Shown piece after piece: positions 5,689 to 7,014 of a stretch of DNA of 64,000 bases (its first letter is position 1; the number at the start of each line of letters is the position of its first letter). The stretch spans positions 3,012-67,011 of the IMG/VR virus record IMGVR_UViG_3300046096_000916; one strand, written 5' to 3'. Both the position numbers and the translations under genes were made by a program. The stretch comes from a virus. A model generated the notes under the pieces. The model ran no database searches and had not been told where the DNA came from. It saw nothing but the letters and a program-made list of their open reading frames with translations.

Positions 5689-5900
5689 ATAAGATAAAGC
5701 TGGTTTTACCATCACTATATCCGCACCGCTCTGAAAAACCTACGTAAACCTATGCAATATCAAAAAAAGACAACTGTCTAGGCTTACTGTTTCCTTCTTG
5801 CTTCATCGTAGTCTCAAGATGTCTCTTGAGTTGTTTTACTACTCCACAAGCTAACCTGCCCGAGCTGGGCATTATTTCTGAACGCTCAGGGATATTTATT
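5689..5900 (-). ncRNA. putative omegaRNA (reRNA) of TnpB: scaffold overlapping the tnpB 3' end plus a 3' guide
   Basis: TnpB omegaRNAs overlap the end of tnpB and the right end. IS607-like right end GTTTACGTAGGTTTTTCAGAGCGG ends at 5726; the guide would start at 5725 (TGCGGATATAGTGATGGTAA). 5' boundary is approximate. Confidence 0.6.
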
Positions 5901-6982
5901 CCTTCAAACCAGCTAAAAATATTTTTAGCTGCATTTAAATCTCTATCTTCTTTATGTCCACATTCTGGACACTCATATACTCGCTGTTTTAAGGGCATTT
6001 TATGCCTATGGGTTGTACAGCTTGAGCATATTTGACTACTTGGATAAAATCTATCTACTAAAATCAATTTACTTGAAAACTTTTGCGTTTTATACTCAAG
6101 TTGTCTTTTAAATTCATACATTCCACAATCAGCTATCGCTCCAGCGAGTTTATGGTTTTTCAAAAATGCTTTGATTGATAAATCCTCAATCTTTATCTCG
6201 CTGTGGTTTTTGGCTAGATAAGTCGTGAGTTTATTAATCCCATCTTTACGAATATTAGATACTCTAGCGTGAAGTTTAGCTAATTTACGGACGGCTTTTG
6301 TGCGATTAGCTGATCCTTTTATTTTTCTACTTACTGCCCGTTGTAATTGCTTTAGCTTCTTTAACATTCTACGATAGGCTTTGGGATTTTCAAAAACCTT
6401 CCCGTTAGAACAAACAGCCAACTCTTTAATCCCTACATCAACACCCACAGACGGGCGATTTATGGGCATTTTAGGTAACTGTACATCATGTTTTATAGAG
6501 ATAAACCATTTATCGGCTTGTCTGCTAATTACGCAGTTATGTACAGCAGTTAAAGGTAATGGTTCGGCTAATCGTACCCAACCTATAGTTGGTAACTTTA
6601 TGCGTTTACCGTCATTCTTAATCATTGGTTTAGCTATCGTTCCCGCTTCTAAGTAAAAAGAATCACATCGACCTTTTTTCTTAAAACGGGGAGCTTTACC
6701 TAACTTTTTAAAACAACGATCCCAAGCCGTACGTAAATTGGCGATCGCCTTCTGGGGTACATTTTTTGAAACGTCATAATACCATTTATTTATTGGTTTA
6801 ACTTCCGCCACTAATCGTTTATGTAAATCAAAAGCCGATGGTGTTTTTTCTCCATTTTTTAAGCATTCTTGAACAGTAGCACAAGCCCAGTTATAGGCGT
6901 GTCTTGCTGTACCTGATGCTTTTCTAAAAAGAGTAGATTGTTTATTGTTAGGTTTTAATTCAGTTTTAAAACTTAATAACAT
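5750..6982 (-). CDS. tnpB: RNA-guided endonuclease TnpB
   Basis: N-terminal FKTELKPN...GTARHAYNW, RuvC D (VGVDVG), E (IEDL), D (DRDLNAA), CxxC..CxxC zinc finger; ATG at 6982 preferred over TTG at 7003. Confidence 0.93.
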   Translation of the reverse strand: MLLSFKTELKPNNKQSTLFRKASGTARHAYNWACATVQECLKNGEKTPSAFDLHKRLVAEVKPINKWYYDVSKNVPQKAIANLRTAWDRCFKKLGKAPRFKKKGRCDSFYLEAGTIAKPMIKNDGKRIKLPTIGWVRLAEPLPLTAVHNCVISRQADKWFISIKHDVQLPKMPINRPSVGVDVGIKELAVCSNGKVFENPKAYRRMLKKLKQLQRAVSRKIKGSANRTKAVRKLAKLHARVSNIRKDGINKLTTYLAKNHSEIKIEDLSIKAFLKNHKLAGAIADCGMYEFKRQLEYKTQKFSSKLILVDRFYPSSQICSSCTTHRHKMPLKQRVYECPECGHKEDRDLNAAKNIFSWFEGINIPERSEIMPSSGRLACGVVKQLKRHLETTMKQEGNSKPRQLSFFDIA

Positions 6983-7005
6983 ATCAGTAGTAGTAAGATA
7001 CAAAA

Positions 7006-7014
7006 ATCATAGCA
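7006..7014 (-). promoter_or_regulatory. possible extended -10 promoter for tnpB
   Basis: TGCTATGAT on the minus strand about 24 nt upstream of the ATG. Confidence 0.35.

What the first reader, a model, noticed from the sequence alone, without database searches (positions are those of the whole stretch)
5689..7014. Phage-borne TnpB whose guide position encodes the active-site motif of host hemB
Seen: tnpB has all three RuvC acidic residues and no tnpA. It is followed by an IS607-like right end (...GTAGGTTTTTCAGAGCGG). The next bases on the minus strand (5727-5689) are GGT GCG GAT ATA GTG ATG GTA AAA CCA GCT TTA TCT TAT = GADIVMVKPALSY, after which the sequence reverts to the AT-rich nrdB leader. 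No hemB-like sequence is visible upstream of tnpB. Established: GAD.VMVKPAL.Y is the Schiff-base lysine motif of porphobilinogen synthase (HemB), required for heme, chlorophyll and phycobilin synthesis; TnpB uses the ~16-20 nt just 3' of the right end as its guide; IS607 elements join at a GG, and here the GG is shared with the Gly codon. Inference: the phage has kept a transposase-less TnpB programmed against an essential host gene, for host chromosome cutting/shut-off or tetrapyrrole control; its position directly ahead of nrdB would fit nucleotide scavenging. Alternative: a passive relic of an IS copy once inserted in hemB and captured with 39 bp of flank.
Basis: partly seen in the sequence, partly recalled or inferred. 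Interest (0 to 1): 0.93.

Follow-up and report, generated by a model that had tools for sequence, protein, structure and literature searches.

The report
Stranded phage TnpB with hemB scar
A freshwater cyanophage carries a broken-off IS607-type TnpB element whose guide position holds 37-39 bases of a haem-pathway gene (hemB), most likely a leftover of where the element once sat and not a weapon aimed at the host.

Summary
Window 5689-5727 (-) is a unique hemB active-site fragment, GADIVMVKPALSY. It lies directly 3' of the right end (...CAGAGCGG) of a tnpB-only IS607-family element. That end is defined by 17 tnpB-linked copies with unrelated flanks. TnpB is intact (D182/E266/D348, zinc finger), and its guide-RNA scaffold is conserved and covaries.

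The adaptive reading is not supported. Three IMG/VR records (L003-L005, 80% nrdB identity) carry a full-length hemB with the same 13 residues. It is 35/39 identical, all four differences synonymous, with GAGGG (a published IS607 TnpB TAM) exactly before the junction. Host-type hemB alleles are 37/39 but read GAAGG there, and carry guide mismatches. No exact 24-mer exists in the viral or metagenome collections. The element's left tip is replaced by 15 nt of KilA-N coding sequence, and no IS607 tnpA is present. Both outer junctions are rearrangement joints in a module inverted relative to the sister phage.

Best reading: a fossil flank of an IS copy once inserted in a hemB, probably the phage's own auxiliary gene. 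Any TnpB guide equals its old flank by construction. This is an ordinary kind of element with an informative history.

The parts
5689..5727 (-). hemB fragment (GADIVMVKPALSY). The first GG (5727-5726) is shared with the IS right end, so 37 nt are pure flank.
   Evidence: Identity is 35/39 to the sister-phage hemB and 37/39 to the G004 and G061 hemB.
5706..5725 (-). Predicted 20-nt guide of the TnpB guide RNA (reRNA/omegaRNA).
   Evidence: It is the first 20 nt after the conserved right end. The 20-nt optimum comes from Ren et al. 2024. It is unique in the window at <=3 mismatches. The RNA 3' end was not mapped.
5726..5910 (-). Guide-RNA scaffold, overlapping the tnpB 3' end and ending in ...CAGAGCGG. 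The 5' limit is approximate.
   Evidence: Alignment of 18 copies. 31 consensus pairs, 20 of them with compensatory changes.
5795..5850 (-). RAGATH-18-like motif inside the scaffold.
   Evidence: Rfam RF03064, 41.7 bits (gathering score 44.9), E 3.8e-6.
5750..6982 (-). tnpB, 410 aa, with an intact RuvC triad and zinc finger.
   Evidence: dN/dS is 0.07 against the closest copy, L008.
6983..7119 (-). Left-end region of the IS, lacking its terminal ~12-15 nt.
   Evidence: Homology to L008 and to the LE consensus runs from GACAAAATA onward.
7120..7134 (-). 15-mer GGGAATAAAAAAGTA (GNKKV of KilA-N) where the IS left tip should be. It is identical to 10902-10916 (+).
   Evidence: 2 exact matches, 0 expected. 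All 28 other copies with a recognised left end read GGG[TC]T here.
7120..7230 (-). 5' fragment of a KilA-N gene (about 37 codons), fused to the truncated IS.
   Evidence: Pfam KilA-N on ORF 7096-7230; alignment with paralogues.
5648..5688 (-). nrdB leader. Homology to the sister phage resumes exactly at 5688.
   Evidence: L004 5960-7017 aligns to window 5688-4631.
4631..5647 (-). nrdB (ribonucleotide reductase small subunit).
10884..11579 (+). 5'-truncated KilA-N paralogue carrying the other copy of the 15-mer, at the far end of the inverted module.

Best explanation
A non-autonomous (tnpB-only) IS607-family element once transposed into a hemB gene. It inserted at the Glu-Gly codons (GAG|GG-T) just before the Schiff-base lysine motif. 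Because TnpB's guide RNA is transcribed across the right end into whatever lies next, the guide reads hemB from then on.

The hemB was most likely the phage's own auxiliary gene, as still carried by its sister phages. Less likely, a host hemB was captured together with the IS.

Later rearrangements removed the rest of hemB and the left tip of the IS. This happened in a recombination-prone block rich in KilA-N paralogues, which is inverted relative to the sister phage. What remains is a 1.4-kb piece (IS without its left tip, plus 37 nt of hemB) wedged between a KilA-N stub and the nrdB leader.

The TnpB protein and RNA scaffold are still intact, so an RNP is probably made during infection. It would be specific for GAGGG-type TAM plus TGCGGATATAGTGATGGTAA. 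No gene with that exact site was found, and nothing indicates selection for hitting hemB.

Shown: the hemB identity of the flank, the right-end boundary, the family, the intact enzyme and scaffold, the abnormal left tip, the sister-phage hemB, and the synteny break. Inferred: the order of events, the source allele, RNP production, and the TAM of this particular enzyme.
For: Right end:
- 17 tnpB-linked copies end in CAGAGCGG followed by unrelated DNA, so the window flank starts at 5725.

Family:
- RAGATH-18 hit.
- 69 nt lie between that motif and the guide, against 64 nt in ISFba1.
- By N-terminal sequence pattern, about 13 of 82 related loci have a ~212-aa ORF just upstream of tnpB. 2 of 2 tested are NCBIfam IS607 transposase, at 217.6 and 207.2 bits against a cutoff of 110.

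Sister phage:
- Sister records L003-L005 carry a 326-aa hemB among phage genes. The peptide is identical, 35/39 nt match, and the 4 differences are all at third codon positions. GAGGG lies immediately 5' of the junction.

Published TAMs (passages read):
- IS607 TnpB TAMs are AGGAG or GAGGG (PMC11061315).
- They are TGGG with -3 G most strictly read, while the scaffold ends ...UCGG (bioRxiv 10.1101/2023.11.20.567912).
- Here 28 of 28 recognised left junctions read GGG and the right end reads GCGG.

Host-type alleles:
- G004: GAAGG plus guide mismatches at positions 10 and 11.
- G061: GAAGG plus a mismatch at position 19.
- X9 contig: GAAGG plus a mismatch at position 1.

Left tip:
- It is 15/15 identical to KilA-N paralogue ORF231 and unlike the LE consensus.

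Synteny:
- Homology to the sister phage stops and starts exactly at 5688/5689.
- The methylase-to-ORF69 module is inverted relative to its flanks.

Other:
- The record holds no IS607 tnpA and no second tnpB.
- The two sister records searched, G304 and G305, hold no tnpB.
Against: - In the sister phage, hemB is not in the same slot or orientation. It lies between module B and the methylase, antisense to nrdB. An in-place relic therefore needs several events that I could not reconstruct uniquely.
- Host hemB (G004, which also holds the closest tnpB copy at 93% aa) is nearer in nucleotides (37/39) than the sister-phage gene (35/39). A freshwater run also holds an uninterrupted host-type hemB that matches the 37 nt at >=90%. 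A host origin of the fragment is therefore not excluded.
- 39 nt cannot discriminate between the two sources statistically.
- TnpB, scaffold and guide are all intact, and dN/dS against L008 is 0.07. This is compatible with continued use, although the ratio mostly reflects the IS lineage and not time spent in the phage.
- The TAM of this enzyme is inferred from junctions and from relatives. It was not measured.
Confidence: 0.75

Rival explanations
1. Anti-competitor nuclease. The stranded TnpB RNP cuts hemB in co-infecting, hemB-carrying sister phages. This would work as marker exclusion, like the selfish nucleases of T-even phages, or as residual homing.
For: Sister phages carry hemB with a perfect GAGGG motif at the right place. 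Sister-type sequence occurs in the same runs (loose end at 5595 in X7, and 90-95% contigs). The enzyme and scaffold are intact.
Against: The only sister allele available has 3 guide mismatches, at positions 4, 13 and 19. ISFba1 TnpB is reported to be very sensitive to single mismatches (abstract of PMC11061315). No exact 24-mer exists in the viral or metagenome contigs. No left homology arm remains, so homing is impossible. Only one lineage carries the element.
Confidence: 0.1
2. One reading: the phage retains TnpB to cut or bind the host's essential hemB, for shut-off, nucleotide scavenging or tetrapyrrole control.
For: Host-type hemB alleles are nearly identical to the fragment: 37/39 in G004 and G061, with GG plus 18 nt exact in G061 and in 6 metagenome contigs. 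An uninterrupted host-type hemB occurs in a run that also holds the phage. tnpB sits directly ahead of nrdB.
Against: The host-type alleles nearest the fragment (G004, G061/L108, G028, G287, the X9 contig) read GAAGG at the TAM position. There, -3 G is the base most strictly required in the studied IS607 TnpB. 28 of 28 family junctions have G at that position. More distant hemB genes do read GAGGG (L096, L109, L113), but they match only 31-34 of 39. G004 and the X9 contig also carry TAM-proximal or mid-guide mismatches. Exact 20-mers occur in unrelated organisms with GC 0.33-0.53, so a match reflects a conserved motif and not a host. Sister phages supply hemB to the host, which is the opposite strategy. 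A single cut in a polyploid cyanobacterium is a poor shut-off. No conservation of the arrangement is seen.
Confidence: 0.07
3. Host capture. The piece (IS plus 37 nt of hemB) was taken from a host chromosome, where the IS sat in one hemB copy of a polyploid or two-hemB cyanobacterium. It was pasted into the phage by illegitimate recombination. This is still a passive relic, but not a relic of a phage gene.
For: Both outer junctions are non-transpositional. G004 holds the closest tnpB (93% aa) and a 37/39 hemB. Several cyanobacteria have 2-4 hemB-like genes. The hemB position differs from the sister phage.
Against: G004 hemB reads ML, not IV, in the motif, and GAA, not GAG, before GGT. The closest host IS copy is only 86% identical in DNA. 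The sister-phage allele matches the peptide and the TAM.
Confidence: 0.25

Closest known systems
IS607-family TnpB with RAGATH-18-derived guide RNA (ISFba1 TnpB; Ren et al. 2024, PMC11061315; abstract and sections 6 and 10 read)
   Same: The protein has about 400 aa and a RuvC triad. A RAGATH-18 motif is followed by a ~64-69-nt 3' flank and then the guide. The TAM is G-rich (GAGGG class). The element's left junction reads GGG and its right end finishes in GG.
   Different: Here the element has no tnpA and lacks its left tip. It sits in a phage. The scaffold overlaps the tnpB 3' coding end, whereas in ISFba1 the RNA starts 13 nt downstream of the gene. The Rfam score is just under the gathering threshold. 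Nothing was tested biochemically.
Homing and retention role of TnpB in IS605/IS607 elements (CboIStron; bioRxiv 10.1101/2023.11.20.567912, passages read)
   Same: The guide equals the flank next to the right end. The TAM equals the TnpA target (xGGG). The right end (xCGG) escapes self-cutting through the -3 base.
   Different: No donor joint or homologous arm remains on the left side, so homing cannot operate. No group I intron was found (Rfam).
TldR, TnpB-like nuclease-dead repressors with guides against host genes (bioRxiv 10.1101/2023.11.30.569447; search-listing abstract only)
   Same: A transposase-less TnpB relative on a mobile element or phage, whose guide matches a cellular gene.
   Different: TldRs have lost the RuvC residues and target promoters. 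Here the triad is intact, and the match lies in the middle of a coding region as a direct insertion flank.
tnpB and IS607 copies in other cyanophages: Anabaena phage A-1(L) (bioRxiv 10.64898/2026.02.14.705889, passages read), Nodularia phages vB_NspS-kac65/68, Microcystis phage Ma-LMM01
   Same: Cyanophage-borne tnpB acquired from host IS families. In A-1(L) it lies inside an invertible module next to an inverted repeat. The Nodularia phage copy is 73% identical and has an IS607 tnpA.
   Different: Those copies are complete or identical to host copies. None is reported with a flank from a metabolic gene.

Membership tests
TnpB RNA-guided nuclease | OrfB_IS605 / RuvC plus zinc-ribbon (TNB) architecture | tested here: met
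   Pfam finds PF01385, PF07282 and PF12323 above their cutoffs. NCBIfam guided_TnpB scores 299 bits against a cutoff of 100. PDB TnpB hits reach E 1e-51 to 6e-56.
TnpB RNA-guided nuclease | Catalytic D-E-D triad | tested here: met
   D182, E266 and D348 align with the ISDra2 and 8iaz residues. This is by alignment only; no activity was measured.
IS607 family (as opposed to IS200/IS605) | Serine-recombinase TnpA with a MerR-like HTH next to tnpB | tested here: not met
   It is absent from the window element and from the whole record. It is present beside close homologues in about 13 of 82 loci, judged by N-terminal sequence pattern. 2 of 2 tested reach NCBIfam IS607 transposase. The window copy is therefore a non-autonomous derivative of an IS607 lineage.
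IS607 family (as opposed to IS200/IS605) | Ends carrying the GG core: left junction xGGG, right end xCGG | tested here: inconclusive
   The right end is met, as ...AGCGG. The left tip is replaced by KilA-N sequence. NCBIfam IS607_TnpB scores 236 bits against a cutoff of 350, and IS200_TnpB 304 against 425. Neither exception model is reached.
RAGATH-18-derived guide RNA (reRNA) | Rfam RF03064 motif in the scaffold | tested here: inconclusive
   The score is 41.7 bits against a gathering score of 44.9, with E 3.8e-6 on 1.9 kb. No hit at E<=0.001 appeared in 8 related loci searched together over 57.8 kb. The stems do covary across 18 copies.
RAGATH-18-derived guide RNA (reRNA) | RNA bound by TnpB, with its 3' end 10-20 nt past the right end | not testable with these tools
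   No listed run that holds the stretch is on record as RNA.
TldR (nuclease-dead TnpB repressors) | Loss of RuvC catalytic residues or C-terminal truncation | tested here: not met
   The triad and zinc finger are intact.
Functional hemB (porphobilinogen synthase) | Full-length ~325-aa enzyme | tested here: not met
   Only 13 codons are present, and there is no other hemB in the record.

The most novel reading that the evidence does not exclude
The stranded TnpB is an early stage of domestication. It is an immobile, transposase-less nuclease whose frozen guide lets this phage cut hemB-bearing genomes with a GAGGG site. Those could be co-infecting sister phages carrying the hemB auxiliary gene, or a host strain with the matching allele. 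That would give exclusion of competitors or host DNA breakage feeding the adjacent ribonucleotide reductase.
Probability: 0.12. Interest if true: 0.8.

Novelty: new member of a known kind. Interest (0 to 1): 0.3.

Why it matters
The case shows how a striking guide-to-essential-gene match can arise for free. Any TnpB guide is the old flank of its element, so such matches need conservation or cleavage evidence before they are read as targeting.

It also documents a decayed IS607-type element in a cyanophage whose history can be read from its flanks.

As a by-product, it reveals that a sister phage lineage carries a full-length porphobilinogen synthase gene. I found no report of this auxiliary gene for cyanophages in the searches I ran.

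If the stranded nuclease were shown to cut natural hemB alleles, it would be a rare natural intermediate between selfish TnpB and a domesticated phage weapon.

Tried and rejected
- Megablast of window 4000-9000 against GenBank phages found no match.
- Exact searches for the guide plus 4 nt (24-mer) gave 0 hits in viral contigs and 0 in metagenome contigs. My pattern began with the T of GGT, so alleles with another Gly codon (such as the one later seen in run X9) were missed. The same 20-mer gave 0 hits in viral contigs.
- A degenerate pattern for right end plus hemB gave 0 hits in viral contigs.
- Among 301 genomes of G004's order, 4 had <=3 mismatches to the 39-mer and 0 were exact.
- Rfam on 8 related loci together returned only a tRNA at E<=0.001. 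I did not repeat it locus by locus.
- I tried to find an empty site for the L008 copy in 41 relatives of G004. The right flank is conserved in G296 and G006 but the left flank is not, so this gave no verdict on whether the third G belongs to the target.
- I could not derive the window arrangement from the sister arrangement by one inversion plus one deletion. Several orders of events fit, and none is demonstrated.
- I rejected the apparent extension of KilA-N homology through ...LRYT in ORF 7096-7230. Those bases match the IS left end of L012 at 18/20 and a KilA-N paralogue at 9/24. Both counts were made by eye.
- Expression: no RNA holder was listed among the 14 runs.
- A part of the stretch without cover in run X9 is not used as evidence.
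They may bear on whether any cyanobacterial member was assayed and on its TAM.
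Full report
**What is there**

The window is bases 3012-67011 of a 67,011-bp IMG/VR virus record that CheckV rates as complete. All of the following lie on the minus strand.
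- nrdB lies at 5647-4631 (Pfam Ribonuc_red_sm).
- It is preceded by a 41-nt leader.
- Next comes the 39-nt stretch 5727-5689, which encodes GADIVMVKPALSY.
- Then comes a tnpB gene at 6982-5750, carrying the three TnpB Pfam domains.

The 39-mer occurs once in the window, with none expected by chance. No other hemB-like sequence exists in the whole record, even at E<=10. TnpB has D182, E266, D348 and both CxxC pairs, read against solved TnpB structures.

**The element and its ends**

A tblastn scan of one genome per species gave 182 relatives; the best 80 were kept. Nearly all come from filamentous cyanobacteria such as Microcoleus, Rivularia, Dolichospermum and Nostoc.

The closest copy, L008, is 93% identical in protein and 86% in DNA over window 7136-5725. 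It lies in ordinary chromosomal context of a MAG, G004.

Searching all loci for the right-end motif gave 21 hits. 17 lie at the tnpB 3' end with a flank to read, and one more is cut off at its contig end. Three lie elsewhere and were set aside. The 17 copies end in ...CAGAGCGG and then continue into unrelated DNA. So the window's right end finishes at 5726 and the flank begins at 5725.

On the left, 28 of 82 loci had a left end that my pattern recognised. All 28 start GGG[TC]T, preceded by variable bases, with A most often at -4.

By N-terminal sequence pattern, about 13 of 82 loci have a ~212-aa ORF just upstream of tnpB. The two I tested, one of them in a Nodularia phage, are NCBIfam 'IS607 family transposase' at roughly twice the cutoff.

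Rfam finds a RAGATH-18 motif at 5850-5795. It scores 41.7 bits, just under the gathering score of 44.9, with E 3.8e-6. From that motif, 69 nt lead to the right end.

This matches the published architecture of IS607 TnpB guide RNAs: RAGATH-18, a 64-nt 3' flank, then the guide, with 20 nt optimal (PMC11061315, sections 6 and 10 read).

An alignment of the last 200 nt of 18 copies gives 31 consensus pairs, 20 of them with compensatory changes. The window copy keeps them.

The element is therefore a tnpB-only derivative of an IS607 lineage, with an intact nuclease gene and RNA scaffold. The predicted guide is 5725-5706.

**What the hemB bases are**

The decisive result is that the phage's nearest relatives carry hemB themselves. 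Three IMG/VR records (L003-L005, nrdB 80% identical) hold a 326-aa hemB flanked on both sides by genes shared with the window.
- Its motif is the same 13 residues.
- 35 of 39 bases agree.
- The four differences are all at third codon positions.
- The bases immediately 5' of the junction point read GAGGG.

GAGGG is one of the two TAMs found experimentally for IS607 TnpBs (PMC11061315). For another IS607 system, both the transposase target and the TnpB TAM are TGGG. There the -3 G is the most strictly read base, and the element's own end, TCGG, escapes cutting through that position (bioRxiv 10.1101/2023.11.20.567912, passages read).

The family here shows the same pattern: xGGG at 28 of 28 left junctions and GCGG at the right end. 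A contig from run X2 also shows a nested insertion of a related copy into another tnpB at ...GTGGG|TG.

Host-type hemB genes are also close to the fragment.
- G004 is 37/39, but reads GADMLMVKPALSY. It has GAAGG before the junction and guide mismatches at positions 10 and 11.
- G061 is 37/39. Its first 20 bases are exact, and it also reads GAAGG.
- Of 301 genomes of G004's order, 4 had <=3 mismatches and none was exact.
- The exact GG+18 string turns up in 6 metagenome contigs. Of these, 5 gave a readable hemB context, with GC from 0.33 to 0.53. Short matches therefore reflect the conservation of the motif, not a particular host.
- One short contig of run X9 matches only window 5688-5724. By my reading of its loose ends, it continues on both sides as an uninterrupted hemB with G004-like flanks. 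Its Gly codon is GGG, which puts a mismatch at guide position 1 and again GAAGG before it.

No exact 24-mer exists in the viral or metagenome collections. The guide also has no second site in the phage.

**The element is stranded**

Where the left tip should read GGG[TC]T..., the window has GGGAATAAAAAAGTA. That string is 15/15 identical to the GNKKV codons of a KilA-N paralogue on the other strand, at 10902-10916. Upstream of it lie the first ~32 codons of a KilA-N gene.

IS homology starts only at GACAAAATA. The left junction is therefore a recombination joint, not a transposition joint, and the GG core of that end is gone.

On the right, homology to the sister phage resumes exactly at 5688. 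In the sister phage the same point abuts the methylase upstream region, which in the window lies at 10860.

A tblastx map shows that the whole methylase-to-ORF69 block is inverted relative to its flanks. It also shows that the sister's hemB lies elsewhere in that block, antisense to nrdB.

Contigs from an independent sample bridge all three joints without a difference. The record has no IS607 tnpA; its only serine recombinase is a 462-aa enzyme at 43976-45364. The sister records have no tnpB.

**Interpretation**

For every IS605/IS607 element, the guide is the DNA that followed the insertion site. A guide that encodes hemB says only that this copy, or its parent, once sat in a hemB.

The peptide identity and the GAGGG motif favour an allele of the phage type. 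An auxiliary hemB is dispensable for a phage, so an insertion there is tolerated. In a host it would hit an essential gene. Even so, the higher nucleotide identity of host alleles, and the different position of hemB in the sister phage, keep host capture open.

Either way the fragment is a scar. I put the passive readings together at about 0.75, with 'own gene' somewhat ahead of 'host capture'.

The adaptive readings remain possible because the enzyme, scaffold and guide are intact. But every natural allele found either lacks the -3 G or carries guide mismatches. IS607 TnpB is reported as highly mismatch-sensitive (abstract). There is also no second lineage that could show conservation.

**Comparison and novelty**

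tnpB and IS607 copies in cyanophages are already known:
- A-1(L), where tnpB lies in an invertible module (passages read).
- Nodularia phages at 73% identity.
- Ma-LMM01, with an adjacent resolvase-type transposase.

This is a new, decayed member of that kind. It is not a TldR, because its triad is intact.

The sister-phage hemB is worth its own look. 0 papers in the library hold hemB, cyanophage and 'auxiliary metabolic' together. None of the 10 GenBank phage records with a hemB match is a cyanophage.

**Verdict**

Interest is 0.3.

Noticed in passing
L004 2545-3525 (-) (same gene in L003, L005; IMG/VR sister phages): There is a full-length 326-aa hemB (porphobilinogen synthase) with a Cys-rich metal site and the active-site Lys. 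It is embedded among phage genes and 80% identical to the hemB of cyanobacterial MAG G004. No cyanophage hemB appears among the 10 GenBank phage records with a match. 0 papers hold hemB + cyanophage + 'auxiliary metabolic'. It is possibly an undescribed auxiliary metabolic gene.
   Followed up: partly
window 7120-7134 (-) and 10902-10916 (+), with the 3.8 kb between: An exact 15-bp inverted repeat lies inside two KilA-N gene pieces. The enclosed methylase-to-ORF69 block is inverted relative to the sister phage. Flipping it would rebuild a full KilA-N gene and put the IS between the methylase and nrdB. Whether it still inverts is unknown.
   Followed up: partly
window 6441 / 5724 (run X2): A contig joins the IS right end to a site inside tnpB (...GTGGG|TGTTG). 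This is a nested insertion of a related copy, which suggests the IS family is active in that community and targets xGGG.
   Followed up: no
window 5688-5724 (run X9): A ~151-nt contig matches only the hemB fragment and runs on as an uninterrupted hemB with G004-like flanks. This rests on my by-eye reading of the loose ends. So a near-identical intact allele exists in the same kind of freshwater samples.
   Followed up: partly
window 9929 -> 11651: A joint skipping 1,721 bp (methylase and the truncated KilA-N gene) is seen in contigs of three runs: X2, X6 and X7. The shorter side is only 32 nt, so it may be a repeat artefact.
   Followed up: no
window 43976-45364 (-): There is a 462-aa large serine recombinase. 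The phage may be temperate, or the enzyme may drive inversions. I did not check its family against Pfam.
   Followed up: no
L088 2294-4212 (Nodularia phage vB_NspS-kac68v161): A complete IS607 (tnpA plus tnpB, the latter 73% identical to the window's) lies inside a cultured cyanophage, and there are 4-5 tnpB-like places per Nodularia phage genome.
   Followed up: partly
G001, G003, G005 (cyanobacterial genomes holding tnpB relatives): Two to four hemB-like genes occur per genome, in two clearly different types (about 74% and 56% identical to the phage hemB).
   Followed up: no
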